Source: Escherichia phage phiA2-1. From it: 44,857 bases of DNA. A program made the translations under genes and the position numbers. The notes under the pieces were generated by a model, which searched no databases, was not told the DNA's origin, and saw nothing but the letters and a program-made list of their open reading frames with translations. This document shows, in pieces, positions 2,973-44,143 of this stretch. Each line of letters opens with the position of its first letter. Position 1 is the first letter of the stretch. The DNA lies in the sequence record OR861626.1. One strand, given 5' to 3'.

Positions 2973-3914
2973 ATGGCCATTAAATTTGATGCAGAACAAG
3001 CAAAAATCACCGCTCACCTTGAGCAAATGGGTGTAGATAAAGCTGATGCTGCTGGTATCTGGACTGTCAAGCAGTTGACCGCCAACCTGGCGCGTGCGTA
3101 CGAAGCAGAGTATTCGGAAAACTCCGTAGTTAATATCTTCCCAGTAACTAACGAAATCCCGGCCCACGCAAAGTATTTTGAGTATCCTGAGTTTGACGGA
3201 ACCGCAATCGCACAGATTATCGCTGATTACTCTGATGACTTGCCGCTGGTTGATGCGTTCATGACTGAGAAACAAGGTAAAGTGTTCCGTTTTGGTAACG
3301 CATTCCTGATCTCCACTGATGAAATTAAAGCTGGTGCAGCAACTGGTCAGTCACTGTCATCTCGCAAACAGGCTCTGGCATTCGAAGCGCACGACAACCT
3401 GCTCGACAAACTGGTATGGTCTGGATCTGCACCGCACGGCATTCCTAGCGTATTCAATGCGCCGAACGTTAACCAGGTTGTTGCTGGTGTGTGGAACTCC
3501 GCGGCTGCTGCTATGACTGATATCACGGCACTTATCGATGCTATCGAAACAGCGACAAATGGCGCCCATACCGCGACTGATATCCTGCTGCCTGCTTCTG
3601 CTCGCCGCCTGATGCAAGAACTGGTTCCGAACACCTCTATCAGCTACGCGCAGTTGTTTGCAACCAATAACTCCGGCATTACTCTGCGCTATCTGCAGTT
3701 CCTGGATAACTACGATGGTGCTGGCGGTAAGGCTGCACTGGCATTTGAAAAGAATCCTCTCAACATGAGTATTGAGATTCCGGAAGCTACTAATGTGCTC
3801 CCTGGTCAGGCGAAAGATTTGCACTTCAAGTACCCAGTCACCTCAAAAGCGACAGGTTTGATTATCTATAGACCGCTAACTGTTTCCGTCCTTAAAGGTA
3901 TCACCTACGCCTAA
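2973..3914 (+). CDS. Major capsid protein (putative)
   Basis: 313-aa ORF in the expected position; preceded by a TATAAT -10-like element and followed by a strong terminator, consistent with a highly expressed late gene. Confidence 0.55.
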   Translation: MAIKFDAEQAKITAHLEQMGVDKADAAGIWTVKQLTANLARAYEAEYSENSVVNIFPVTNEIPAHAKYFEYPEFDGTAIAQIIADYSDDLPLVDAFMTEKQGKVFRFGNAFLISTDEIKAGAATGQSLSSRKQALAFEAHDNLLDKLVWSGSAPHGIPSVFNAPNVNQVVAGVWNSAAAAMTDITALIDAIETATNGAHTATDILLPASARRLMQELVPNTSISYAQLFATNNSGITLRYLQFLDNYDGAGGKAALAFEKNPLNMSIEIPEATNVLPGQAKDLHFKYPVTSKATGLIIYRPLTVSVLKGITYA

Positions 3915-6587: not shown

Positions 6588-6650
6588 ATAGCACTTTTTG
6601 CTAAAGCACTTATTCAGCTTTACTGTATAGTTATCTCATCGAAACGAAAT
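6588..6650 (+). promoter_or_regulatory. Conserved promoter-like cassette (ATAGCAC-N4-TTGCTA box, 22-nt spacer, TATAGT, CATCGAAACGAAA leader)
   Basis: ATAGCACTTTTTGCTAAAG at 6588; TATAGT 22 nt after TTGCTA; ATCGAAACGAA at 6638..6648; ATG at 6665. Confidence 0.5.
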
Positions 6651-18574: not shown

Positions 18575-19368
18575 GTGATTATGGTGTTGAACTAATAAAT
18601 GACTATGGTTTAAAGGTTGCTGACGCAGAGGATGTAAATTACGTACTAAGAAGTTCTGGTACATTTAATGATTCAAATTTCTACTCATATGCAAACTCCA
18701 CATCTGCAATTAGCCTCATGACCACAGGAATGAATTCGCCTCTTCTATTTCTAAAGATGAACGAAAGTAGGTCAAGGATAAGCCAGAAGCCTGGAGTTAA
18801 CAAAATATCACCTGATTTTGTTAACCCAAATACCACAATAACAAAGACAAGCATAGACCTATTCAAGTGGTGGAACATACCGCTAGGAACTGTAGAGTAT
18901 TACATATTTGACAAGTGGATCCCGCCAGAAAGAAGTGATTATGGAATGCAGATATTTAATGAATCTGGTTCTATAATCTTTGATTCTGGCTGGTACTTCC
19001 TCAAACTTAGGGATGTGCTATGGCTTGATCCAAGTTATCCAAACCATTCAGATCAGGAAGGTGGTAGTAACTGGACTAACGTCGGGAATATTGTCAACTC
19101 CGCGAACGTATCAAACTCAGCATTATCAATGCCTGTTGGTAGGGGGTGGGTTGAAACATCATTGCAGGGTGGGTACTACTATAATGAATGCTGTCACCTT
19201 GACTCATCCGGTAATCTATTTATATCCATAATACCTACAGGTATATACCTTGATGTTTCACCAACTGGCGGCTGGGTTGGCAATATGAGGACGCAAGTTA
19301 TGGTTTGCGACACCTCGAGGCTGCCTCTTAATTACAATCCAGTTGAGATAAGAAAGGAAAACAAATAA
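18571..19368 (+). CDS. Hypothetical protein, Asn/Ser/Gly/Trp/Tyr-rich (tail-associated by position)
   Basis: 265-aa ORF, last gene of the plus-strand late block. Confidence 0.3.
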   Translation: MSDYGVELINDYGLKVADAEDVNYVLRSSGTFNDSNFYSYANSTSAISLMTTGMNSPLLFLKMNESRSRISQKPGVNKISPDFVNPNTTITKTSIDLFKWWNIPLGTVEYYIFDKWIPPERSDYGMQIFNESGSIIFDSGWYFLKLRDVLWLDPSYPNHSDQEGGSNWTNVGNIVNSANVSNSALSMPVGRGWVETSLQGGYYYNECCHLDSSGNLFISIIPTGIYLDVSPTGGWVGNMRTQVMVCDTSRLPLNYNPVEIRKENK

Positions 19369-20166: not shown

Positions 20167-20832
20167 CTACTTATCTTTAAGTAGCAACTTGATATCAATT
20201 CCTAGATTATTCTCAATCAATCCAGTCAGTGCACCTACCTTTTCCTTAAGTGCGAAGCACTGTGTTTCATACTTGAATCTCAACTCCATCTCATCAGAGC
20301 GACTTGACCAGCACTGCCGAGCCTCGCACGCTAGCTCATCAATCTTCTTGTCAAGTTCCTTATCTGACAGGGTGATTTCAGTAATTCGCTGCTCAGCTAC
20401 GATTCTCTGGATCAAGTGAGCATTCTGCGCTTGCAGGTATCCATTCTTCATTCTTTCCTCTTTAAGTTCATCAATGCTTACCATCTGACTGATTACTTCC
20501 GCTTGCTTGTTGATGGTGCTTTGCATTTCTTTAAGCTTAGCAAGCACTGCGCGACGAACGAACTTTGATTCTCTCATCCCAATCAAAAGCATCTGTTCCA
20601 TATTGAGCACTGGTGAGTTGATTGACTTTCTATAACCTCCTCTACCCTCACTCTTGATTACGAAACTTTCGTAGTCAAACTCAAACCCTTCAAGCTCATC
20701 CTCTATTCTCTCAACAAAGTCATTGTGTCGAACATTGGACTCCCCAGCGATCAACCTCGCTGGGTTGATAACTTCATTTAAAAACTGATAACTATTCATT
20801 TTTACGTCTTCATTAAGTAATGCTAAGTTCAT
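20167..20832 (-). CDS. Rha-family-like regulatory protein with coiled-coil C-terminal half (putative)
   Basis: Track ORF to 20856; likely start ATG 20832; SNVRHNDFVERIEDEL and MLLIGMRESKFVRRAVLAKL resemble Rha motifs. Confidence 0.4.
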   Translation of the reverse strand: MNLALLNEDVKMNSYQFLNEVINPARLIAGESNVRHNDFVERIEDELEGFEFDYESFVIKSEGRGGYRKSINSPVLNMEQMLLIGMRESKFVRRAVLAKLKEMQSTINKQAEVISQMVSIDELKEERMKNGYLQAQNAHLIQRIVAEQRITEITLSDKELDKKIDELACEARQCWSSRSDEMELRFKYETQCFALKEKVGALTGLIENNLGIDIKLLLKDK

Positions 20833-20856
20833 TTTCGTCTCTCTTTTGTTTTTCAT

Positions 20857-21467
20857 TCCTAAGATTTGAGGAGTTAACTAAGTTCTTTTCCTCAATTTGA
20901 GGAGGAGTTGACAGCACCATTGCCGCCACGCGCCTAAATATACCTAAAGATAGCCAGTTGTCTTTAGCAAATCGTGCTATTTATCGACAATTTCACCATA
21001 AATCACAGTTACACGTAACCGATGTAACTCGATGTATACAATCTCATCCGCGGGAAATGATATACGCGCTGTTACGCCAATTTACGCATTGGTTACATTA
21101 AAATATCTATATATATCAACCTTTTACTCTTATTATTATTATTATATATATTACTGTGTATATCATGTAACTACTTCTATAGAGTGTTCCGGTTATAATT
21201 TTAATATCATGTGGATTTATACAGTATTGCGCGGCAGCTATACCAATGCACCCTCAGCGAGAAACGGCATACACGATATACACGATGTTTACATTGAGCT
21301 ATGGCTGGCTTGAGATGCCAAAAAGCGTAACTAGTGCCAATGCCTACACGAAATTACAAAGATTCACGCGTAAACTTAAATCAACGATTTGCAAAACCAA
21401 TTGGACTGGTTACGGTGCTGAATATATAGTTACCTCATCGAAAGCAATCAACCAGAGAGATATATAA
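20857..21467. promoter_or_regulatory. Large AT-rich divergent control region with (TTA)n and (TA)n tracts
   Basis: 611 nt without a credible ORF; (TTA)5 near 21127..21145; TATATATAT; palindrome CCTCAAATTGAGG; separates minus-strand block from plus-strand early block. Confidence 0.4.
20920..20981 (-). promoter_or_regulatory. Promoter-like cassette (minus orientation) for the 20832 gene
   Basis: Minus strand AATAGCACGATTTGCTAAAG, 22 nt, TATATT. Confidence 0.45.
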
Positions 21468-21662
21468 ATGACCTACTACATTATCAAAGAGAAAAACAAT
21501 GCACTGTTCGGCGACTGCTACTTTGGCGGCCAGGCTGGATACACCACAGATAAGAGTGAGGCCGACAGGTTCGAGACAAAGGAAGAGGCCAAAGGACTGC
21601 TGACAGGATACTTCACTGAAGAAGATTTGAAGGCAATCAAGATTGTTAAAATTAAGGTTTGA
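21468..21662 (+). CDS. Hypothetical protein (first gene of plus-strand early block)
   Basis: 64-aa ORF after GAGAGA RBS-like sequence. Confidence 0.35.
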   Translation: MTYYIIKEKNNALFGDCYFGGQAGYTTDKSEADRFETKEEAKGLLTGYFTEEDLKAIKIVKIKV

Positions 21663-24949: not shown

Positions 24950-25012
24950 TGTAAGGTCTCCATTTGTAAAATAGCACAATTTGCTAAAACTAATTCTACC
25001 ATCTTTAATGCA

Positions 25013-26486: not shown

Positions 26487-26960
26487 TTAATCTTTAGCTT
26501 TTCGTGCTGCCTCGTTAGCAATCTTATTCTTGCGCCATGGTCGACATGATGGCTTAGTTGCTAGTTCGGCTTCGGTAACTACGCGAAGCATATGGCGTTT
26601 CTTGCATCGAAGTGTTAGCGGCTTTCCATTCCCGTCGAATTGCAAGTCAGGTCGGCAGAATGTAGCTCGAAAACCTTCCTTATTTCGCTTGTACGCATTG
26701 TGAGCTTTCTGCGCACCTCGAGCTGAAATCATGCCGCGATCAAACCACTGCTCTACAGTCTGGTGAGATACATTTAACTGTTTTGCGATGTTCGCCTTTG
26801 TGCCGTAGAAATCAAGAACCATCTCCAGACGTGCCCTGAGGCCAGCCCTCACCTCATCCTTTAATACGTAGTAACCTGAAGGTCGTTTGCGCTGCTTCTT
26901 GTCTTGTGTGCGTACCGTTCCGTTATTACCGTTAATTGTTCTCTTGTCAATTTCACACAT
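26487..26960 (-). CDS. Putative HTH DNA-binding protein
   Basis: 157 aa, basic; HTH-like segment TKANIAKQLNVSHQTVEQWFDRG. Confidence 0.4.
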   Translation of the reverse strand: MCEIDKRTINGNNGTVRTQDKKQRKRPSGYYVLKDEVRAGLRARLEMVLDFYGTKANIAKQLNVSHQTVEQWFDRGMISARGAQKAHNAYKRNKEGFRATFCRPDLQFDGNGKPLTLRCKKRHMLRVVTEAELATKPSCRPWRKNKIANEAARKAKD

Positions 26961-33876: not shown

Positions 33877-33890
33877 TGGGGCTATTTTTA
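33860..33890. terminator. Bidirectional terminator
   Basis: AGCCCC-GTAA-TGGGGCT flanked by A-run and T-run. Confidence 0.5.
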
Positions 33891-34223
33891 TGCAAACAAT
33901 TCTTCGTCACTCATGGTTGTTATGTTCATCATCTCATTTATATAATCACTAGACTTACCATCAAGACTCATGAGCTCAAACTGGAATGGTCTCTTGCTTG
34001 GACCTTTTGACCAGTAAACACCATTAACTCCATCAAGGTATCCAGCCGTTAGCATTCTCGCCATAAACTCCTTCGAGCAACTTGAGGCAAAGTATCTTTC
34101 ATTAACTCCTGCTGCCTTAGCCATCCTTGCACAATCCTTGTGCTTGTAGATGAATCTTGCGAGGTGCTGGCGGTTGAAGTTTTTGTATCCTTCGCAGAAC
34201 TTGTACACGTCGAGTAGAAACAT
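33888..34223 (-). CDS. Hypothetical protein
   Basis: 111-aa ORF. Confidence 0.35.
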   Translation of the reverse strand: MFLLDVYKFCEGYKNFNRQHLARFIYKHKDCARMAKAAGVNERYFASSCSKEFMARMLTAGYLDGVNGVYWSKGPSKRPFQFELMSLDGKSSDYINEMMNITTMSDEELFA

Positions 34224-34226
34224 CTA

Positions 34227-35810
34227 TCACCCCAACAGTCGTGGATTAATGTAAATCTTATCGCCAATCAGGCACGTATAGTTTTTCTCATCAAGCATCG
34301 GAACCAAGTGGTCTTTTATGCGAGTCATGACTCCAGCCTGAGCTTCGAAAGGCTTAACCTTGCGCGCTGCTTCATATAATGAGCGAATACCAACAACGCC
34401 CTTCCCATTCTTGCCCTGCTTAATCAGGATATCAACCAGCTTGTTCATCTCCGCATTGTCACCAGCATGACCAGCAGCACTAGCAGATGACAAATACGTC
34501 TTGCTTAGTTCGTGGAAAATCATAACCGCTTCCTGCATTGTCTCAAGTTCAATCTCTCTGGACTTCTGAGGACTCGACCCGGCTGGCGCGAACCAGTTGC
34601 GAATAACATGCAGAACAGAAGCGATACGAATTGCTTGCTTATCAAACTTACCTAGCGCACCACGTAACATTGTGTGGGAATACTTACCGCCATCACCAAG
34701 ATGCGGCTCCATCTCCTGACGAGCGCGGTTGAGGTAACGCATGGATGACGCACTTACAGTCAGTTTCACTTCAACTTCATTCATAATCTCATGAACGAGC
34801 CGGAAGTAATCAGCCTTCAACCCACCATCAATAGCCTCATAGGTTGAATCTCCATTCTCATCAACAAACACACGGTCGCCAAGGAATGACTTTTCACGCA
34901 CCAGAAGAAAACGTTCAGATACACCAATACCACGCGCACCAGCATTCATAATAGCATTGATTGTTTCATCCTGAGCAATTACAGAAATACATCCCATAGC
35001 CACAAAACTCATGTTGTTTTCTGCGTTAGCGCGCGCAATAGATACGTTACCAGCATCCCACGCCTTAAGCACTAGCTCGCTGTTCGTTTTCTTTGAGCCA
35101 TCTCCGTATGTCATGCCAAGCAGTGAGTTTACGCTTGTTGCCTCATCCGAGATTACAGCAAAGTTTCCCTGTCGGTTGTTTATTCGCGCAAGACCTTCCG
35201 GCGTAGTATCGGAGACCGGGAATACTATATCGCATAGCTTCTCGAGCTTTTCCTCTAAATCCTCCTTCTCTTCAAATAGTGATGCCATCTCAGAAGGTGA
35301 CTTCTCCTGCTTCATCTCTTTTGATAGAGCGGATAGCTTAGCCATAATCTTTTTGCGGTCACGCTTGCGCACTTCATTCAACCGCTCAGTCTCAGCGATC
35401 ATTGGCGCAATAGATAGTGAGTTGATGGCAGATTTACCAGTTGAGGGAGGCTGGCTTGTTACAACGTACAAAGATGTTGGCTGCTGAGTTCCATGATATT
35501 CAACCGTAAAGCGCCCAAGCATTGCAGCAGACACGCAACCCAGAAAGTGCATGTAAGCTGAAGACTCTGGAAACTGAACTGAACGAGCAATATTGGCAGA
35601 TAGCTTACCAACGATATCAATGTCATTACCTAATGATATGACAGGATACTTGTCATTACCTGCATCAATCTCGACAGGTGTTTTCCAGAATGATTGTGAT
35701 TGTCGATAACCATTTGCATTAATGGCCACGCGCAGGGGTGGGAGGTTGTCATTGGCGGCAATTGCCATAACCTGTTCAACAGATAGTTTATCTTCGTTGA
35801 AATCAAACAT
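34227..35810 (-). CDS. P-loop NTPase, putative replicative helicase
   Basis: 527 aa; Walker A-like SQPPSTGKSA; N- and C-termini repeated in the truncated paralog at 38698. Confidence 0.45.
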   Translation of the reverse strand: MFDFNEDKLSVEQVMAIAANDNLPPLRVAINANGYRQSQSFWKTPVEIDAGNDKYPVISLGNDIDIVGKLSANIARSVQFPESSAYMHFLGCVSAAMLGRFTVEYHGTQQPTSLYVVTSQPPSTGKSAINSLSIAPMIAETERLNEVRKRDRKKIMAKLSALSKEMKQEKSPSEMASLFEEKEDLEEKLEKLCDIVFPVSDTTPEGLARINNRQGNFAVISDEATSVNSLLGMTYGDGSKKTNSELVLKAWDAGNVSIARANAENNMSFVAMGCISVIAQDETINAIMNAGARGIGVSERFLLVREKSFLGDRVFVDENGDSTYEAIDGGLKADYFRLVHEIMNEVEVKLTVSASSMRYLNRARQEMEPHLGDGGKYSHTMLRGALGKFDKQAIRIASVLHVIRNWFAPAGSSPQKSREIELETMQEAVMIFHELSKTYLSSASAAGHAGDNAEMNKLVDILIKQGKNGKGVVGIRSLYEAARKVKPFEAQAGVMTRIKDHLVPMLDEKNYTCLIGDKIYINPRLLG

Positions 35811-35829
35811 TACTTCTCTCCGTGTTGTT

Positions 35830-35889
35830 TCTGAGCGGCCATTATATCAACAGCCGCTTATTATGCATTATCAATTCGTGCTAATTATC
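35830..35889 (-). promoter_or_regulatory. Degenerate promoter-like cassette (minus orientation)
   Basis: Minus strand AATTAGCACGAATTGATA, 22 nt, TATAAT, upstream of ATG 35810. Confidence 0.3.
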
Positions 35890-36237
35890 GGTATTGAGCT
35901 TCAAATCTGTAGTCGCCGCAGATTGTAATAAAACCTACCTCCTCATCTCTTAAAAGCTGCCAGGCATTGCCTTCCTTGTCGTAAATATATCCAGCTCGCT
36001 GACCAAGGCCAGCATGGATGTCAACTTGATACCGCTTTCCTTCAGTGAAGTATTTGCGAATAGATGATCGATGGTTAACCTTTGTACAGTAAAGCGTTTT
36101 AGTCTTAATGTATTTGCCGCGCTCTTCAAGATTAATCCACTTGTCATCTTTTTTGATTTGTTCGATACCATCTTTAACGCGAGCTTTAAACAGTTGATTG
36201 TCTTTACTAATCCAGTTTTTTGTAATCGTAGTGGTCA
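35885..36237 (-). CDS. Hypothetical protein
   Basis: Track ORF to 36262 (GTG); ATG at 36237 overlaps stop of upstream small ORF (TAATG). Confidence 0.35.
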
Positions 36238-36399
36238 TTACTTTACTCTCTTTGTTGTCCACATAAATTTGTTTGGTACTGATTTTCGCACGATACGCAC
36301 AACAATCTTATCAGTCTTCTGAACTAATCCGTAAATCTTTCCATCTAGTGAAGCTCTGAAAACAGCCTCTTCCATCGCGTCATAAAAGTTGTCGAACAT
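36238..36399 (-). CDS. Small ORF (53 aa), not in ORF track
   Basis: Hand translation MFDNFYDAMEEAVFRASLDGKIYGLVQKTDKIVVRIVRKSVPNKFMWTTKRVK; follows cassette at 36413..36475. Confidence 0.3.
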   Translation of the reverse strand: MFDNFYDAMEEAVFRASLDGKIYGLVQKTDKIVVRIVRKSVPNKFMWTTKRVK

Positions 36400-36412
36400 G
36401 CTTACTTACTCT

Positions 36413-36475
36413 ATTTCGTTTCGATGAAGTAACTATACAACAAAAGCCCCGAATGGCTTTAGCAATTAGTGCTAT
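36413..36475 (-). promoter_or_regulatory. Promoter-like cassette (minus orientation)
   Basis: Minus strand AATAGCACTAATTGCTAAAG, 22 nt, TATAGT, CATCGAAACGAA leader. Confidence 0.5.
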
Positions 36476-36620
36476 TTCTCGCCTTCTCAATCGCCTTCAG
36501 CATAACCTCGTGAGACTCAAGCAGATCCTCGTTGAACCAGTCTCCGCAAGGCCAACCATTTCCGCTGTATGCGGCCACAACACTTAAGTCGTAGTAGTTA
36601 ATATCAGATGGTAATAGCAT
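36471..36620 (-). CDS. Small ORF (49 aa), not in ORF track
   Basis: Hand translation; stop TAA lies within the cassette box. Confidence 0.25.
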
Positions 36621-36622
36621 TA

Positions 36623-36823
36623 TTAAATCACCTTAAAAGTTGCAATACCGTGGATGATGACGTAATCAAGGCATTTAAGCGCCTGAAACGTATCGTGATG
36701 CTTGTGTGGGCGGTCTCCTGTAACAAGGCACATGTCATCTTTGAAATCGGTAGCATTGTATTCAGACCCCTTATTGAATGCGTCTTTAAAGTCTTTAATG
36801 ATGTTAGTGCAAAGAAGTTTCAT
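36623..36823 (-). CDS. Hypothetical protein
   Basis: 66-aa ORF. Confidence 0.3.
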   Translation of the reverse strand: MKLLCTNIIKDFKDAFNKGSEYNATDFKDDMCLVTGDRPHKHHDTFQALKCLDYVIIHGIATFKVI

Positions 36824-36824
36824 G

Positions 36825-37043
36825 TTAATCCTCTAAAATTTCAAAAATCAATCGACCTTTAATCGCAGCAATAACAAGGCCATTTTCGATGTAGCAGAAA
36901 ATTGGTCTGAAGTTATCGCCAAACACGTAACCATGAACTTCATCATAACTGTAATGCTTCCCACTGCTAAATTCCCAGGTTCCATCATTAAGATTATTTA
37001 AGCACTTAACTTTCATTTCTTCATTCCTTACCAGGGTAAACAT
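36825..37043 (-). CDS. Hypothetical protein
   Basis: 72-aa ORF. Confidence 0.3.
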   Translation of the reverse strand: MFTLVRNEEMKVKCLNNLNDGTWEFSSGKHYSYDEVHGYVFGDNFRPIFCYIENGLVIAAIKGRLIFEILED

Positions 37044-37249
37044 TCATAGCAACCAAGGCCATCACAACATAGATAATCATCATCTGACTGGAATTGCTTA
37101 GCCAGGTCAATATCGATGCGTCCGCGCAAAACCATATCAGTGTAATCATGGTTAAGTCCAATCAGCGAACATTCCTGCTTTAGTTGCTCAAGTGCTTCAC
37201 CTTTAAGTTTCATATTAGCTCCAGGAGTTGATGTAAATTGAGTTGTCAT
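37028..37249 (-). CDS. Hypothetical protein
   Basis: 73-aa ORF. Confidence 0.3.
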   Translation of the reverse strand: MTTQFTSTPGANMKLKGEALEQLKQECSLIGLNHDYTDMVLRGRIDIDLAKQFQSDDDYLCCDGLGCYECLPW

Positions 37250-37439
37250 TTAACAGGATAATCATCTCAGCGCGATTAAGGCTGCGAACGATTGAGCCCG
37301 TGTGAGTGCCAATAACGTATCGGTAGAACTCACGGCGCGTGATGGTGATTTGACTTACTCCAGCCGAACGGCCCAGCTTGATAACTGCGTGACCCCTGGC
37401 TTCGATATGCATCATTACGTTCTGGGCTTTGATTGACAT
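37215..37439 (-). CDS. Hypothetical protein
   Basis: 74-aa ORF, first gene downstream of minus-strand cassette at 37450..37521. Confidence 0.3.
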   Translation of the reverse strand: MSIKAQNVMMHIEARGHAVIKLGRSAGVSQITITRREFYRYVIGTHTGSIVRSLNRAEMIILLNDNSIYINSWS

Positions 37440-37449
37440 TTTTACTTCC

Positions 37450-37521
37450 TCTTATGTACTTCGTTTCGATGAGATGATTATGGTCTCCTTGCCAATGAAT
37501 GTCTTTAGCAAAAAGTGCTAT
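37450..37521 (-). promoter_or_regulatory. Promoter-like cassette (minus orientation)
   Basis: Minus strand AATAGCACTTTTTGCTAAAG, ~24 nt, CATAAT, CATCGAAACGAAG leader. Confidence 0.45.
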
Positions 37522-38149
37522 TCGTTGGATTTATTGATTGTTGAAGCTACTGCAATGATTCACATCATTATTGCACGTATAGCAATATTGCATTTAATGC
37601 AATGATGTTTTTGATTGTTGCAGAATTTGCAATGATTGATGTGGGATTGAATGAATAGAGGATGGACTACCATACAAGTTGATTTTGATTCTGGCTGAGC
37701 CACTTTTCTGTATACGCGTAACGCCTGTATACTCACTGTAGTCACAAAAGTAAGTGACCACTAACATACGTTTTTTACGCAGCATATACACTTGACATAC
37801 ACTATAAGTATATAATATATATATACTTCTTCTTTATTATTATTATTATTATTATATGTATACCGTGTATACCGCTCATTGATGGAATAGTTGATATGTT
37901 CCTCTGTTATATTCTGACACACGTCAGAATTGGATGACACTTGTCAGAATAAAAAGGCGCATATATAGGAAATCAGCTCAAAAAACCGTATACAGAGGAT
38001 ACTGCAAGGTTACAACCAGTGCTGGCGCGGCTTTGAGTGCCGAAGGGCGTAACTATGATGAAATATACTAAAATATACATTGACAGACACGTAAATCACT
38101 GGCACTATAGCAATCACTGAAACGCAGTACACAACAACGAGGTATTGAG
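37522..38149. promoter_or_regulatory. Large divergent control region with direct repeats, inverted repeats and a (TTA)7 tract
   Basis: TGCAATGAT x3 (about 37550, 37597, 37627); TGTATAC x4; GTCACAAAAGTAAGTGAC; TTGACA and TATAAT; (TTA)7 at about 37834..37856; GTCAGAAT x2. Confidence 0.45.
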
Positions 38150-38698
38150 ATGCAGAAAGTAACGCTTGGTGAAGTTATTCGTGAGATGGTACGAAAGGCG
38201 ATGGAATCGGAAAGTGGTGAGTTTAAGGTTCCAGTCAGCCAGATATTCAAAATGATTCGCGGAAGGTCGTACCCGGAAATGGAGTATGACACTGAGACGG
38301 ATGAGATATTGAATTTGGCAGACCGGTCATTACCTGAGCTTAAGAACTCATACATCTACAACACCGTGTCACGAATGACAGACTTACGAGACGCAAACAA
38401 GAGGGCGCGATATAAATTTATCTGGATTGATGACGAAGGAGAGCAGACAAACGCAAGGCAATTTGATGGTGATGGTGCTGATAAGTACTTGGTTATATAC
38501 ATTGAGAACGGTGCGCACTGGACTGGCAATCGGGAGAAGAAGAAACAAGAAGCTCAGAAAGAGGCGACCACCATTGAAAGGTTCAAGGCCAGAATCCTGA
38601 AACTCATGCCATCAGTGACTGAATTTGAAGGCGATGAGATTTCCGGTGCTATCAAGGCAATCAAAATGTACCAGGAAATGATTAAGGAGACAAAATAA
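38150..38698 (+). CDS. Hypothetical protein (first gene after control region)
   Basis: 182-aa ORF. Confidence 0.4.
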   Translation: MQKVTLGEVIREMVRKAMESESGEFKVPVSQIFKMIRGRSYPEMEYDTETDEILNLADRSLPELKNSYIYNTVSRMTDLRDANKRARYKFIWIDDEGEQTNARQFDGDGADKYLVIYIENGAHWTGNREKKKQEAQKEATTIERFKARILKLMPSVTEFEGDEISGAIKAIKMYQEMIKETK

Positions 38699-39120
38699 TG
38701 TTTAACTTTAGCGATAACAAGCTCACCACTGAAGAAATTATTAAAATCGCTGAGAGTGATGGGCTTCCAGTTATCAGCGTGGCAATCGAAGCGAATGGAT
38801 ACAAGCACTCTCAATACTTATGGGGTCACATTGGTGTATATGATGTTTTCAAGGGTAGCGACCTTGCGATTATTATTAAGAATCTCGAAAAGTTCAGCAA
38901 AAGCGGAAGCTATGTGGTTACTGTGAAGACACTGCACGAAAGCGTATTCGCCATGCGAGAAATCGGGCCACATGAAAGGCTTCATGATGAACTTATTCCG
39001 CAACTTGAGGTGATGAACATTGCTTTCCTTATCGGCAATAATATTTACATTAATCCTGCTCTTGCAGATTCAAGCTGGAATCCTAATTTTAAAGCCCGAG
39101 AAGATGAGCACCCTAGTTGA
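38698..39120 (+). CDS. Truncated paralog of the 34227..35810 helicase (N- and C-terminal segments only, no ATPase core)
   Basis: MFNFSDNKLTTEEIIKIAESDGLP...AIEANGYKHSQ aligns with MFDFNEDKLSVEQVMAIAANDNLP...AINANGYRQSQ; C-terminal LIGNNIYINPAL aligns with LIGDKIYINPRL. Confidence 0.45.
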   Translation: MFNFSDNKLTTEEIIKIAESDGLPVISVAIEANGYKHSQYLWGHIGVYDVFKGSDLAIIIKNLEKFSKSGSYVVTVKTLHESVFAMREIGPHERLHDELIPQLEVMNIAFLIGNNIYINPALADSSWNPNFKAREDEHPS

Positions 39121-42043: not shown

Positions 42044-42550
42044 ATGAGCAAAGCAGCATTAAAGATGGGTGAGGGAAACTTCAAGGCGCTTTACAACAAG
42101 AAGTATGGCGATATTGCTATGGTTGCAATCAACCGCAAGTACACGCCAGAAGAGGTGTTTAATTTTGCCGTTAGATACTTCTCCTGGGCTGAGGGTGAGG
42201 CAATTAAAGCTATCGAGACAGCGGCTTTCCAGGGTGTGGTTAGTGAAAGCCTGGTGCACAAGCCTCGGGTATTCACCTTAACTGGCCTGGCACTCTTCAT
42301 GGGTGTTAATATCAATAGGTTCGCTCGCTGGCGCGGTGAGGCTGGGTACTCTGACGTGATGGAGTTTATTGATAACGTAATCTATGAGCAGAAATATCAG
42401 CTTGGCGTTGCAGGTATTATCAACTCCACCATCGTTGGTAAAGAGCTTGGCATTGATAAGCCGCAGGAGATTACCATTAGCAACAACTCCACAGCTAACG
42501 ACGTTGATAGCATGAAGGAAGCGCTGGAATCTGTGATAAGTAAGTTATAA
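42044..42550 (+). CDS. Terminase small subunit (putative)
   Basis: 168-aa ORF immediately upstream of terminase large subunit; AAGGAGG RBS; HTH-like FTLTGLALFMGVNINRFARWR. Confidence 0.55.
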   Translation: MSKAALKMGEGNFKALYNKKYGDIAMVAINRKYTPEEVFNFAVRYFSWAEGEAIKAIETAAFQGVVSESLVHKPRVFTLTGLALFMGVNINRFARWRGEAGYSDVMEFIDNVIYEQKYQLGVAGIINSTIVGKELGIDKPQEITISNNSTANDVDSMKEALESVISKL

Positions 42551-42568
42551 CAACAAGAGGGCATAACA

Positions 42569-44143
42569 ATGAGTGACGTTTTGGTCTGGGAGGAACTATC
42601 CCAATCAGAGAAGCAAGCCGTCAAGCTTCTGTCTACGCATAACTTCGAGACTTTCCTTCGGGTATGGTTTAGCCTTACCCAGGGCCAGAAGTACATAATG
42701 AACTGGCATCATAGATACCTGTGCAGAATAGTTGACGAAATTATAAGCGGTGAGAGAAAGGATACAATCATTAACGTATCGCCTGGAGCTGGTAAAACCG
42801 AGATTACATCCATCCACTTTCCAGTTTACAGTTATCTAAAACTACCAAAAGTGCGAAACCTTAGCCTGTCATTCTCTGACAGCCTGGTTAAGCGAAACTC
42901 AAAGCGAGTTCGTGACCTAATTAAGTGCCAGGAGTTTCAGGAGCTATTCCCAAGCAAGTTTGGCACTTGTAAGGATGACGAAATTCAGGTTCTTGATGAG
43001 TCAGGCAAAGTGCGGTTTGAGTCGATATCAAAGGCTATTGGTGGCCAAATAACTGGGTCACGCGGCGGCTACATTACCGACACTTACAGTGGCTGTCTAA
43101 TGCTGGATGACGTTGATAAAGTCGATGATATGCTCAGTAAGGTTCGCCGCGAGTCGGTTCATATGCTTCTGAAGAACACCATTCGCTCTCGTAGGGCCAG
43201 CTCGGTCAAGGGGAGGGCCACGCCAATTATTTCCATACAGCAGCGATTGCATGTTAACGACTCAAGTTGGTTCATGGCTGAATCTGGCGGCATGGGGATA
43301 GATTTCGATGTGGTGAAGATTCCAGCAATCGTAACCGAGGATTACATCGACACACTTCCTGACTGGTTAAGGCCACACTTCGAGGCTGACGTTCTATCTA
43401 GCGAGTACATCGAGCGGGATGGGGTTAAATACTACAGCTACTACCCACAGAAGGAATCAATTCACGATTTAATGGCAATGCAAGACGCCGACCCATACAC
43501 GTTCGCAAGTCAATATATGCAAAGCCCCATAGCTCTCGGCGGCAACATGGTGGATACGGATTGGTTTATTCGTTACGGTGGGGATTTGCGAGCGCCATTG
43601 AAGTATGATTACCGATTCATTACTGCGGATACCGCACTTACCACGAAGTCATACAGTGACTTTAGCGTATTCCAGTTATGGGGAGTAAAAGATAGGAAGC
43701 TATACCTTCTTGATATGGTTAGGGGTAAGTATGAAGCACCCGAGCTTGAGGCGACGCTATTGGATTTTGAAGCAAAAGCAAGAGCCACAAGTCGCGAGGA
43801 GGGAATACTCCGTAAGGTAATTATCGAGAAGAAGGCATCTGGTATTGGCCTAATTCAGTCCGCTGGTAGAGTTATGCGCACACCTATTGAGCCATTCATA
43901 CCAGATACAGATAAGGTTACCAGAGTGCTGTCGGCAATACCTCAGATTAAGGCTGGCAATGTAATGATTCCAGAATCAGCACCGTGGATGAGTGCATTCA
44001 TCTCTGAGTTTTCAGCATTTACAGCAGACATGAGCCACCGCCACGACGACATTGTGGATACAACAACAATGGCAATCAACTGCGAACTAAACCTTGCAGA
44101 TGACCCTAAATCTCGAATGTTACGCCTCGCGGGAATTAAATAA
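42569..44143 (+). CDS. Terminase large subunit
   Basis: 524 aa; Walker A-like VSPGAGKTE; C-terminal nuclease-like acidic residues; followed by portal. Confidence 0.75.
   Translation: MSDVLVWEELSQSEKQAVKLLSTHNFETFLRVWFSLTQGQKYIMNWHHRYLCRIVDEIISGERKDTIINVSPGAGKTEITSIHFPVYSYLKLPKVRNLSLSFSDSLVKRNSKRVRDLIKCQEFQELFPSKFGTCKDDEIQVLDESGKVRFESISKAIGGQITGSRGGYITDTYSGCLMLDDVDKVDDMLSKVRRESVHMLLKNTIRSRRASSVKGRATPIISIQQRLHVNDSSWFMAESGGMGIDFDVVKIPAIVTEDYIDTLPDWLRPHFEADVLSSEYIERDGVKYYSYYPQKESIHDLMAMQDADPYTFASQYMQSPIALGGNMVDTDWFIRYGGDLRAPLKYDYRFITADTALTTKSYSDFSVFQLWGVKDRKLYLLDMVRGKYEAPELEATLLDFEAKARATSREEGILRKVIIEKKASGIGLIQSAGRVMRTPIEPFIPDTDKVTRVLSAIPQIKAGNVMIPESAPWMSAFISEFSAFTADMSHRHDDIVDTTTMAINCELNLADDPKSRMLRLAGIK

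What the first reader, a model, noticed from the sequence alone, without database searches (positions are those of the whole stretch)
37522..38149. Repeat-rich divergent control region: candidate early promoters and/or replication origin
About 630 nt without coding potential contain TGCAATGAT three times, TGTATAC four times, GTCAGAAT twice, several perfect inverted repeats (GTCAC-N8-GTGAC, TTCTGAC-ACAC-GTCAGAA), consensus TTGACA and TATAAT hexamers and a (TTA)7 tract. Iteron-like direct repeats next to an AT-rich tract are typical of origins, and the region is flanked by divergent gene blocks.
Basis: seen in the sequence. Interest (0 to 1): 0.5.

Follow-up and report, generated by a model that had tools for sequence, protein, structure and literature searches.

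The report
T1-type phage packaging site and promoters
This repeat-rich gap between two outward-facing gene blocks of a T1-like coliphage most likely holds the site where DNA packaging starts plus the outward promoters, and also one of two copies of an AT-rich module of unknown role; it is mostly ordinary for this phage family.

Summary
Every listed motif is at the stated place, and the 710-nt gap (37440-38149) is the densest local-repeat cluster and the AT-richest spot of the genome.

The window is a T1-like (Drexlerviridae, Braunvirinae) phage, and the gap has four parts.

1. A leftward promoter (PL) sits at the left edge. It is one of about 15 identical promoter modules in the genome.
2. A block at 37525-37686 is near-invariant in relatives and holds the TGCAATGAT repeats. 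Record ends or mapped DNA termini of five relatives (T1, Rtp, TR1, MSK, SU57) project into or right at the end of it. I read it as the pac site, not as iterons.
3. A ~430-nt module (37690-38110) has an AT-rich core with (TTA)7, TTACGC repeats and palindromes. It has a paralog at 20981-21468, and every relative examined carries two copies, T1 included. Its function is open: early-transcription control or a replication origin.
4. A rightward sigma-70 promoter (PR) reads TTGACA-17-TGgCACTAT.

No DnaA or IHF signal, conserved ORF or structured RNA was found in the gap. GC skew only mirrors gene direction.

Side finding: the genome-wide promoter module fits the E. coli MarA/SoxS/Rob marbox in class-II geometry.

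The parts
37477..37521 (-). PL, the leftward promoter. It has a 20-bp marbox-like element (37521..37502, ATAGCACTTTTTGCTAAAGA) overlapping the -35 position (AAGACA, 37505..37500). A 19-nt gap separates the box from the -10 hexamer CATAAT (37482..37477). Downstream lie the leader TCATCGAAACGAA, an RBS and the ATG at 37439.
   Evidence: The -10 position is kept in 11 of 11 phages with A2 and T6 invariant. PL is one of 16 such modules in the genome.
37525..37686 (+). Near-invariant non-coding block, proposed to be the pac site (terminase recognition and first cut). It contains two TTGATTGTTG...TGCAATGATT units (37533-60 and 37610-37). It also holds the palindromes TGCAATGAT-N7-ATTATTGCA (37551-75), GCAATATTGC (37582-91) and ATTGCAT-TTA-ATGCAAT (37587-603), plus TGAATGAA (37648-55).
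   Evidence: The block is 83-90% identical in all Braunvirinae examined, while the flanking genes are not conserved. Record ends or mapped termini of relatives project to 37580 (Rtp), 37586 (T1), 37662 (TR1), 37670 (MSK) and 37687 (SU57). Word use is strand-asymmetric: TGAT 7 versus ATCA 1, and GATT 7 versus AATC 0.
37659..37686 (+). Asymmetric, almost invariant segment AGGATGGACTACCATACAAGTTGATTTT (core 27-mer from 37660). It is the probable cut or recognition core of pac.
   Evidence: Both PhageTerm termini of relatives fall inside it. Conservation stops abruptly at 37687 in 18 distinct sequences.
37690..38110 (.). One of two paralogous ~430-nt non-coding modules; the other lies at 20981-21468. 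Function is unresolved: early-operon control region or replication origin.
   Evidence: Region 1 and region 2 of six genomes align along their whole length. Every genome has exactly two (TTA)n>=4 tracts, each inside such a module. T1 has the same design.
37713..37780 (.). TACGC-type sites: the palindrome TACGCGTA (37713-20) and ATACG-N5-TTACGC (37764-80). The lineage-specific palindrome GTCAC-N8-GTGAC (37741-58) lies between them.
   Evidence: TTACGY/RCGTAA occurs 4 times in region 1 and 5 times in region 2, against 0.7 expected in each. In relatives, 2-3 copies are spaced 10-11 nt apart.
37774..37803 (+). Candidate internal rightward promoter (Pmid), TTTACG-18-TACACT, directly upstream of the AT-rich core. 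It is a weak call.
   Evidence: The -10 TACAnT is kept in 11 of 12 module copies, but the -35 is poorly conserved.
37798..37872 (.). AT-rich core containing (TTA)7 (37834-54), followed by TGTATACCGTGTATAC (37857-72).
   Evidence: It is the AT-richest stretch of the genome. It is conserved in relatives and in the paralogous module.
37912..37950 (.). The 7-4-7 palindrome TTCTGAC-ACAC-GTCAGAA, plus a further half-site repeat TGACACTTGTCAGAAT 20 nt downstream. It is a likely binding site for a dimeric protein and is specific to region 1.
   Evidence: The arms are conserved while the centre varies. In RobRod40 and MSK both arms are changed in concert (TTCCTAC/GTAGGAA).
38080..38149 (+). PR, the rightward promoter. 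It has -35 TTGACA (38080-85), a 17-nt spacer containing ACACGTAAA, and an extended -10 TGg-CACTAT (38100-08). Downstream lie the leader TCACTGAAACGCAG, an RBS and the ATG at 38150. An A/T-rich stretch lies just upstream of the -35.
   Evidence: It is the top-scoring position-conserved promoter in 11 of 11 phages. The -10 reads TATAAT or TATGAT in the most diverged ones.

Best explanation
The gap is the junction region of a T1-type genome map, and it holds several cis-acting elements side by side.

1. **PL (left edge).** Host RNA polymerase starts leftward transcription at PL. PL is a promoter with a poor -35 hexamer, overlain by a marbox-like activator site.

2. **pac block (37525-37686).** I read it as the pac site. 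The terminase has a P22-gp3-type small subunit encoded 4.4 kb to the right. It would recognise the block on replicated concatemers and make the first cut near 37660-37690. It would then fill heads rightward, towards the small early genes and the terminase genes. This would give terminally redundant, partly permuted chromosomes.

3. **PR (right edge).** A near-consensus sigma-70 promoter with an extended -10 starts the rightward operon of small genes.

4. **The ~430-nt module between pac and PR.** It holds TTACGC sites, an AT-rich core with (TTA)7, GTATAC repeats and palindromes. It is not part of pac, because a paralogous copy sits upstream of the recombination genes. It is a shared control module whose role is undecided: protein-bound regulation of the two rightward early operons, or initiation of replication.

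**Shown:** the presence, conservation and paralogy of the elements, and the projection of relatives' termini into the block.

**Inferred:** terminase binding, promoter activity and packaging direction in this particular phage.
For: **Identity of the phage.** The closest records are Braunvirinae. TerS (PF16677, PHROG 606) and TerL lie at 42044-44143.

**Evidence for pac**
- The T1 record starts inside the homologous gap and annotates a 2.8-kb terminal repeat from position 1. That start projects to window 37586.
- Rtp's record end projects to 37580.
- TR1: PhageTerm called headful packaging with a site at 3615, and the GenBank record carries a matching note. It projects to 37662.
- MSK: PhageTerm called headful packaging on the forward strand at 36,862 with p = 1.6e-9. 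It projects to 37670.
- SU57: the end was set at an abrupt change in read depth and projects to 37687. Its authors place pac in this untranslated region.
- The block is an island of 83-90% identity among non-conserved small genes.
- Conservation ends exactly at 37687.
- Word use in the block is strongly strand-asymmetric.
- T1 keeps two GATTGTTGC-N6-TGCAA(TG) units there.

**Evidence for the promoters**
- PL and PR are position-conserved in 11 of 11 phages, and the diagnostic -10 bases are invariant.
- PL belongs to a genome-wide module with a fixed 18-nt gap to a -10 hexamer and a shared leader.

**Evidence that the module is not pac**
- It occurs as two copies per genome.
Against: - No read data exist for this phage, so its own termini are unknown.
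- The TR2 paper reports a PhageTerm site at 18,637. In record coordinates that is a terminator hairpin between the SSB and recombinase genes, not this block.
- PhageTerm found no termini for the T1-likes KanT1 and 7WV.
- The block does not co-vary with TerS. It is 87-88% identical in TR1, TR2 and Sd1, whose TerS is only 64-66% identical. It tracks the neighbouring DUF3987 helicase instead (90-99%).
- The T1 and Rtp record starts may be conventions rather than measured ends. I could not read those papers.
- The projected termini spread over about 100 nt.
- The block was not found in E. coli chromosomes or plasmids, so no satellite is seen borrowing it.
- No promoter here has a mapped transcription start.
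Confidence: 0.6

Rival explanations
1. The AT-rich core with its flanking TTACGC/GCGTAA sites is a replication origin, one of two per genome (the other near 21.1 kb). A phage or host protein would bind the helically phased TTACGC repeats. The (TTA)n tract would melt, perhaps helped by a transcript from the adjacent Pmid promoter, as at phage T4 oriF/oriG or the T7 primary origin (my own knowledge). The phage primase and helicases would then load.
For: - These are the two AT-richest stretches of the genome.
- 2-3 TTACGC units lie 10-11 nt apart directly upstream of the core. The site is about 6-fold enriched in both modules, with mirrored orientation around the core.
- The architecture is kept as far as T1.
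- A promoter-like TTACG...TACAnT sits directly upstream of the core.
- Genes point away from both modules.
- No origin has been identified for this family.
- A DUF3987 helicase lies on the left arm, and a small paralog of it lies on the right arm.
Against: - No DnaA-box cluster is present; such words are depleted genome-wide.
- No IHF core lies in region 1 of this phage.
- The repeats are short (6-7 bp) and few.
- One GCGTAA-type site lies in the PR spacer, which fits an operator as well as an iteron.
- Both modules sit about 250-300 nt upstream of rightward promoters, as a control region would.
- The GC-skew minima are explained by gene orientation alone.
- No initiator has been identified.
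Confidence: 0.3
2. One reading: the TGCAATGAT direct repeats are iterons of an origin lying next to the AT-rich tract.
For: Three exact copies are unique to this region. An AT-rich tract lies about 170 nt away. The block's conservation tracks the neighbouring DUF3987 helicase rather than TerS.
Against: - The spacing of 47 and 30 nt is not regular.
- The third copy is absent from most relatives, which read GTGAAATGAAG there.
- The repeats are parts of palindromes and of a longer 28-nt unit, not simple iterons.
- Mapped termini lie in the same block.
- The paralogous AT-rich module near 21 kb has no TGCAATGAT repeats.
Confidence: 0.08
3. The whole gap is purely a transcription-control region. 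The conserved block would be a set of operator or activator sites for PL and for early regulators. The coincidence with reported termini would be an artefact of record conventions and imprecise PhageTerm calls.
For: - The block lies at -45 to -215 relative to the predicted PL start and is made of palindromes typical of dimeric regulators.
- PhageTerm calls in this family are inconsistent.
- Many records are simply opened to match T1 or Rtp.
- The phage encodes a Cro-like HTH protein.
Against: - Two independent PhageTerm calls from different laboratories land 8 nt apart in the same invariant 27-mer.
- SU57's end came from a read-depth step.
- The second divergent control region near 21 kb has the same promoter layout but lacks this block.
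- The strong strand asymmetry fits a directional process.
Confidence: 0.12
4. The conserved block encodes a small protein (as annotated in TR1, BEK1-1, BEK6 and TR2) or a small RNA.
For: Short CDSs are annotated there in four records. The block is highly conserved.
Against: - The annotated ORF starts at a GTG inside the marbox, and I saw no Shine-Dalgarno sequence upstream of it (by eye).
- It ends at different places because of a 1-nt indel, and it is absent from the window, JeanPiccard and RobRod40.
- Rfam gives nothing below E = 0.96.
- I did not fold the block itself as RNA. The adjacent stretch (37870-38115) showed no structure signal.
Confidence: 0.03

Closest known systems
pac region at the genome-map junction of T1-like phages (T1, Rtp, SU57, TR1, MSK)
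   Same: The locus is homologous. It is the same divergent gap between the leftward small-gene/DUF3987-helicase arm and the rightward small-gene/terminase arm. The block is 83-90% identical. Published termini or record ends fall in it or at its right edge.
   Different: None of the papers I could read defines the pac sequence. TLS pac was guessed from a P22-like AGATTT, and, as relayed by the MSK paper, ATATA repeats were proposed for T1 pac. T1 itself lacks the 27-mer and shares only the GATTGTTGC...TGCAATG units. Nothing has been measured for the phage in the window.
Composite pac sites of other headful phages: P1 pac (about 160 bp with repeated hexamers flanking the cut), SPP1 pacL-pacC-pacR, P22 pac (22-bp asymmetric site). 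These descriptions are from my own knowledge.
   Same: The size (about 160 bp), the repeated short motifs on one side of the cut, an asymmetric core of about 25 bp, and a P22-gp3-family small terminase.
   Different: There is no sequence similarity. Here pac lies 4.4 kb upstream of terS, rather than inside or next to it as in P22 and SPP1. No IHF core or GATC sites occur in the block.
Class-II marbox promoters of the E. coli mar/sox/rob regulon
   Same: The PL upstream element fits AYnGCACnnWnnRYYAAAY with one mismatch. It is in forward orientation, overlaps the -35 position and lies 19 nt from the -10 hexamer.
   Different: It is a phage promoter, repeated about 15 times with far less degeneracy than the host boxes. 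Dependence on MarA, SoxS or Rob is untested. A phage protein could be the binder instead.
Paired operator regions of lambdoid phages (OL/PL and OR/PR), or paired origins such as SPP1 oriL/oriR. These descriptions are from my own knowledge.
   Same: Two homologous non-coding control modules lie about 17 kb apart. Each sits at a divergent gene junction and shares short protein-site-like repeats.
   Different: The phage is virulent. The modules are about 430 nt long with an AT-rich microsatellite core. No binding protein has been identified, and there is no sequence similarity to lambda or SPP1 elements.

Membership tests
pac site of a headful-packaging phage | The phage encodes a headful-type terminase (small and large subunits). 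| tested here: met
   42044-42550 is PF16677 GP3_package / PHROG 606. 42569-44143 is a terminase large subunit.
pac site of a headful-packaging phage | A unique, over-represented virion DNA end (the first cut of a packaging series) lies at the site in this phage. | not testable with these tools
   No reads or virion DNA are available for the window phage.
pac site of a headful-packaging phage | The homologous position holds mapped termini in relatives. | tested here: met
   TR1 3615 projects to 37662, MSK 36,862 (forward) to 37670, SU57 to 37687, and the T1 and Rtp record ends to 37586 and 37580. Contrary or null reports exist for TR2, KanT1 and 7WV.
pac site of a headful-packaging phage | Specific recognition by the small terminase, tested here as co-variation of site and TerS. 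| tested here: inconclusive
   Block identity (83-90%) is independent of TerS identity (64-98%). The TerS alignment shows a conserved core and a variable N-terminus in all lineages.
Iteron-type replication origin | Three or more regularly spaced direct repeats that bind an initiator. | tested here: not met
   This row concerns TGCAATGAT. Its spacing is 47 and 30 nt, and the third copy is not conserved. The TTACGC repeats (2-3 copies at 10-11 nt) remain possible.
Iteron-type replication origin | An adjacent AT-rich unwinding element. | tested here: met
   37781-37860 is 84% A+T, the richest stretch in the genome. An equal element exists near 21.1 kb.
Iteron-type replication origin | Host initiator or architectural sites (DnaA boxes, IHF). 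| tested here: not met
   No exact DnaA box lies in the gap, and one-mismatch words are depleted genome-wide (67 against 107 expected). No IHF core lies in region 1.
Iteron-type replication origin | Replication initiates at the site. | not testable with these tools
   This needs marker-frequency data, 2D gels or a plasmid assay. GC skew is confounded by gene orientation.
Sigma-70 promoter | -35 and -10 hexamers at 16-18 nt spacing, conserved in relatives. | tested here: met
This holds for PR (TTGACA-17-TGgCACTAT) and PL (AAGACA-17-CATAAT) in 11 of 11 phages.
Sigma-70 promoter | Transcripts start there. | not testable with these tools
   I found no transcription-start data for any T1-like phage.
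Class-II marbox (MarA/SoxS/Rob) promoter | Match to AYnGCACnnWnnRYYAAAY, in forward orientation, overlapping the -35. | tested here: met
   There are 15 matches at one mismatch or fewer, against 1.06 expected. Fourteen of them belong to the 16 promoter modules, and 15 of those 16 modules have a -10 hexamer 17-19 nt after the box (13 at exactly 18). The 18-19-bp spacing rule for class II is from my memory of Martin et al. 1999.
Class-II marbox (MarA/SoxS/Rob) promoter | Activation by MarA, SoxS or Rob. | not testable with these tools
   I found no paper linking marboxes to phage promoters.
Known RNA family (Rfam) | Covariance-model match. | tested here: not met
   The best hit has E = 0.96, well below the gathering score. 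The stretch 37870-38115 has a folding z-score of -1.1 and a consensus structure energy of -0.9 kcal/mol.

The most novel reading that the evidence does not exclude
The AT-rich/(TTA)n module with phased TTACGC sites, present here and again near 21.1 kb, is one of two transcription-primed replication origins of T1-like phages. A weak promoter would fire into the easily melted tract, as at T4 oriF/oriG. No origin has been identified for this family in the papers I could read, so this would place the first candidate sites next to the packaging site and next to the recombination genes.
Probability: 0.25. Interest if true: 0.6.

Novelty: new member of a known kind. Interest (0 to 1): 0.4.

Why it matters
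T1-like phages are common laboratory and fermenter contaminants, generalized transducers and therapy candidates. Yet in the papers I could read their pac sequence, origin and promoters have been placed only approximately or by guesswork.

This analysis offers four things.
- A sequence-level candidate for pac, namely the block 37525-37686 with a 27-mer core. It could be tested directly and used to orient genome records.
- Two specific early promoters.
- The finding that the AT-rich "origin-like" part is a duplicated module, which narrows where to look for an origin or a master early regulator.
- The marbox-like design of about 15 phage promoters. If real, it would mean a virulent phage routes much of its transcription through a host stress regulator.

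Tried and rejected
- **Rfam scan of 37300-38300:** nothing.
- **RNA folding of 37870-38115 and an 11-sequence consensus fold:** no signal.
- **Tool promoter scan:** it missed PR and PL-type sites because of its strict -10 rule. I replaced it with a PWM scan on the alignment.
rejected. The spacer is 13 nt and the pair is not conserved.
- **A sigma-54 reading of TGGCAC near PR:** rejected by eye, because the GG-GC spacing is wrong.
- **A LexA-box reading of CTGTATAC:** rejected by eye, because there is no CTGT-N8-ACAG.
- **Block in E. coli genomes and the whole gap in plasmids:** no match.
- **IMG/VR scan with TerL:** only 2 useful loci. Scans with block words returned mostly the same isolates.
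- **TerS co-variation:** not informative.
- **IHF and DnaA scans:** no support.
- **Rtp genome paper:** not held. I did not attempt the T1 genome paper.
- **Literature searches for T1 origin or transcription-start mapping:** nothing found.
- **PDB, NCBIfam and Pfam for DUF7174, the DUF3987 helicase and the small flanking proteins:** no functional lead.
- **AlphaFold on the 140-aa helicase paralog without an alignment:** pLDDT 38, unusable.
- **Conserved small ORF:** rejected.
Full report
**What the window is.** The window is essentially a whole genome of a T1-like siphovirus (Drexlerviridae, Braunvirinae). Megablast of the region and of the first 25 kb finds only such phages: TR1, Sd1, IME253, Rtp and others. 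A leftward block of small genes plus a 527-aa DUF3987 helicase (33888-37439) faces a rightward block (from 38150). That rightward block runs through many small genes to the terminase small and large subunits at 42044-44143. The finding lies in the 710-nt gap between these blocks.

**Observation.** A genome-wide count of locally recurring 8-mers puts 10 of the 12 top windows in this gap. The AT-richest 80 nt of the genome start at 37781. No ORF in the gap is conserved in frame among 11 aligned relatives. Rfam finds nothing.

**Comparative anatomy.** An alignment of the gap from 11 phages, and of its left part from 18 distinct sequences, splits it into parts with different behaviour.

*Part 1, left edge (37477-37521, minus strand).* This is one copy of a module found 16 times in the genome. 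The module reads ATAGCAC-N3-TTGCTAAA, then 17-19 nt (18 in 13 copies), then a TATAgT-like -10. A conserved leader (TCATCGAAACGAAA), an RBS and an ATG follow. In the 11 phages the -10 varies (CATAAT, TATAGT, TATGAT, TATACT, TATATT), but its A2 and T6 never do. This is the promoter of the leftward block (PL).

*Part 2, the block 37525-37686.* It is 83-90% identical in every Braunvirinae phage examined. This holds even where the neighbouring small genes, and the rest of the gap, are unrelated. These are really parts of two 28-nt units (TTGATTGTTG...TGCAATGATT) and of three palindromes built on GCAAT/ATTGC. The third TGCAATGAT is missing from most relatives. The block ends in an almost invariant asymmetric 27-mer (GGATGGACTACCATACAAGTTGATTTT), after which conservation stops at 37687. 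Word use is strongly one-stranded: TGAT 7 versus ATCA 1, and GATT 7 versus AATC 0.

*Part 3, the module 37690-38110.* It holds the GTATAC pairs, GTCAC-N8-GTGAC, TTACGC-type sites, the AT-rich core with (TTA)7 and the TTCTGAC-N4-GTCAGAA palindrome. It is conserved in one group of relatives (TR1, Sd1, 12210I and others) and replaced by a diverged version in another (Rtp, MSK, IME542, TR2, RobRod40). It travels with the variant of the first rightward gene, a DUF7174 protein.

*Part 4, right edge.* TTGACA (38080) - 17 nt - TGg-CACTAT (38100-08) is the best position-conserved sigma-70 match in all 11 phages. It reads TATAAT or TATGAT in the two most diverged ones. It is followed by a leader resembling that of the other promoters. 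This is PR.

**Why the block is most likely pac.**
- The T1 record starts inside the homologous gap and annotates a 2.8-kb terminal repeat from position 1. Its junction projects to window 37586, and Rtp's to 37580.
- For TR1, PhageTerm reported headful packaging with the site at 3615. The GenBank record says the same in a note. That position is window 37662.
- For MSK, an independent laboratory reported a forward-strand PhageTerm start at 36,862 with p = 1.6e-9. That is window 37670.
- SU57's end, set at an abrupt change in read depth, is window 37687. Its authors state that pac of T1-likes lies in this untranslated region.
- Two independent nt apart inside the invariant 27-mer, and conservation stopping just beyond them, are hard to ascribe to chance.
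- The forward direction reported for MSK points towards the terminase and head genes.
- The size and layout resemble composite pac sites of other headful phages: about 160 bp, repeated motifs on one side and an asymmetric core (my own knowledge of P1, SPP1 and P22).

**Caveats on pac.**
- A PhageTerm site reported for TR2 (18,637) does not map here. In record coordinates it is a terminator hairpin.
- PhageTerm gave no termini for two other T1-likes.
- The block does not co-vary with TerS.
- I could not read how the T1 and Rtp ends were set.
- The block is absent from E. coli chromosomes and plasmids.

**The AT-rich part is a duplicated module.** The only other spot as AT-rich and repeat-rich is near 21.1 kb. 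Reading it showed a paralog of the finding's right-hand part. It lies in the other large divergent gap, between the leftward gene at 20167-20856 (in relatives the cor/lipoprotein genes lie at this junction) and the rightward recombination genes. A marbox-type leftward promoter again sits on its left.

Every whole genome examined (the window, MSK, T145P1, Rtp, TR2, RobRod40) has exactly two (TTA)n>=4 tracts, one in each gap. The two gaps align over about 430 nt. The shared order is:
- a TACGCGTAA-type palindrome,
- CCGCGG,
- 2-3 TTACGC units 10-11 nt apart,
- GGTTACAYT,
- the AT-rich core with (TTA)n,
- a TGTATA repeat,
- GCGTAA-type sites, one of which lies in the PR spacer.

TTACGY/RCGTAA is about 6-fold enriched in both modules. 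T1, from another subfamily, has the same design. The second copy has no GCAAT repeats and no 27-mer, so this module is not part of pac.

The module shows no conserved RNA structure. It has no DnaA-box cluster, and no IHF core in region 1. Two readings remain.
- It could be a protein-bound control region for the two rightward early operons. The site in the PR spacer, the palindrome whose two arms change together in RobRod40 and MSK, and the Cro-like HTH protein at 26487-26960 all fit this.
- It could be a replication origin. The phased short repeats next to the most meltable DNA, the weak promoter (TTTACG-18-TACACT) firing into it, and the absence of any known origin in the family fit this.

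I cannot decide between them with sequence alone. I put the origin reading at about 0.3.

Cumulative GC skew has a local minimum at 37-38 kb. Equal minima occur at about 21 kb and 27 kb, wherever genes switch from leftward to rightward. Skew here reports gene orientation, not replication.

**Side finding.** The genome-wide promoter module fits the E. coli MarA/SoxS/Rob marbox consensus AYnGCACnnWnnRYYAAAY.
- There are 15 matches at one mismatch or fewer against 1.06 expected, and no shuffle exceeds 5.
- The box is in forward orientation, overlaps the -35 position and lies 17-19 nt before a -10 hexamer in 15 of 16 modules, 18 nt in 13 of them.
- This is the class-II arrangement (the 18-19-bp rule itself is from my memory).
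- The TLS paper describes the same 21-nt repeats as elements of unknown function.
- I found no paper linking them to the marbox.

**Verdict.** The region is real and functional-looking, but largely what one expects at this locus of a T1-like phage: the packaging start site and divergent promoters. The origin idea is unsupported for the TGCAATGAT repeats. It remains open only for the duplicated AT-rich module.

Noticed in passing
window 6588+, 10598+, 19755-, 20980-, 22634+, 24971+, 26973+, 29464+, 30146+, 32056+, 35884-, 36475-, 37521-, 39207+, 40077+, 40648+ (start and strand of each module): A genome-wide promoter module, ATAGCAC-N3-TTGCTAAA, fits the E. coli MarA/SoxS/Rob marbox consensus. 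There are 15 hits at one mismatch or fewer against about 1 expected. The box is forward-oriented, overlaps the -35 position and lies 17-19 nt (18 in 13 copies) before a -10 hexamer in 15 of 16 copies. This is class-II marbox geometry. It suggests that the phage uses a host stress regulator (or a mimic) at about 15 promoters. The same repeats are called function-unknown in the TLS paper.
   Followed up: partly
window 20981-21468: A second divergent non-coding region is paralogous to 37690-38110. It has TTACGC repeats, an AT-rich core with (TTA)5 and TGTGTATATCATGTAAC. Two IHF-core matches lie at 21114 and 21379, and its own rightward promoter sits before the gene starting at 21469. It is nearly invariant among relatives, whereas the copy in the finding varies.
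   Followed up: partly
window 38698-39120 (+) and 34227-35810 (-): The 140-aa protein is an internal-deletion paralog of the 527-aa DUF3987 helicase. Its N-terminal 42 aa are 50% identical and its C-terminal ~90 aa are 34% identical to the helicase, and the ATPase core is missing. The two genes flank the finding on opposite arms.
   Followed up: partly
downstream of most promoter modules, e.g. 37467-37454 (minus strand), 6632-6645, 36431-36418: A conserved transcript leader, TCATCGAAACGAAA, starts about 6-8 nt after the -10 hexamer of many promoters. PR has the variant TCACTGAAACGCAG, and T1 has TCATCGTAAACGAA. Its function is unknown.
   Followed up: no
window 24971-24990 (+): An orphan marbox-like element has no -10 hexamer at the usual distance. 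It is followed by a GC-rich hairpin (CCTCCCGAAGGAGG) and lies on the plus strand among leftward genes.
   Followed up: no
whole window: GATC occurs only 45 times, against roughly 170 expected from base composition (my estimate). The TLS paper reports over 200 methylated GATC sites for T1 and 254 for TLS. DnaA-box-like words are also depleted (67 against 107 expected).
   Followed up: no
window 37912-37929; L029 (RobRod40) and L025 (MSK) homologous positions: The 7-4-7 palindrome TTCTGAC-N4-GTCAGAA is replaced by TTCCTAC-N4-GTAGGAA in RobRod40 and MSK, with both arms changed together. BEK6 and SU57 carry hybrid, imperfect versions. This looks like a switch in the specificity of a dimeric binding protein.
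   Followed up: partly
L028 (TR2) 18600-18660: The published PhageTerm packaging site of TR2 (18,637) falls on a terminator hairpin between the SSB and recombinase genes in GenBank coordinates. It does not fall in the conserved block. Either a different numbering was used or the call is an artefact.
   Followed up: partly
L015 (T1) 100-121; L014 (Rtp) about 530-555: T1 and Rtp each carry two leftward marbox-type modules around the block. In T1 the second lies to the right of the block, so the pac region there would be transcribed leftward.
   Followed up: no
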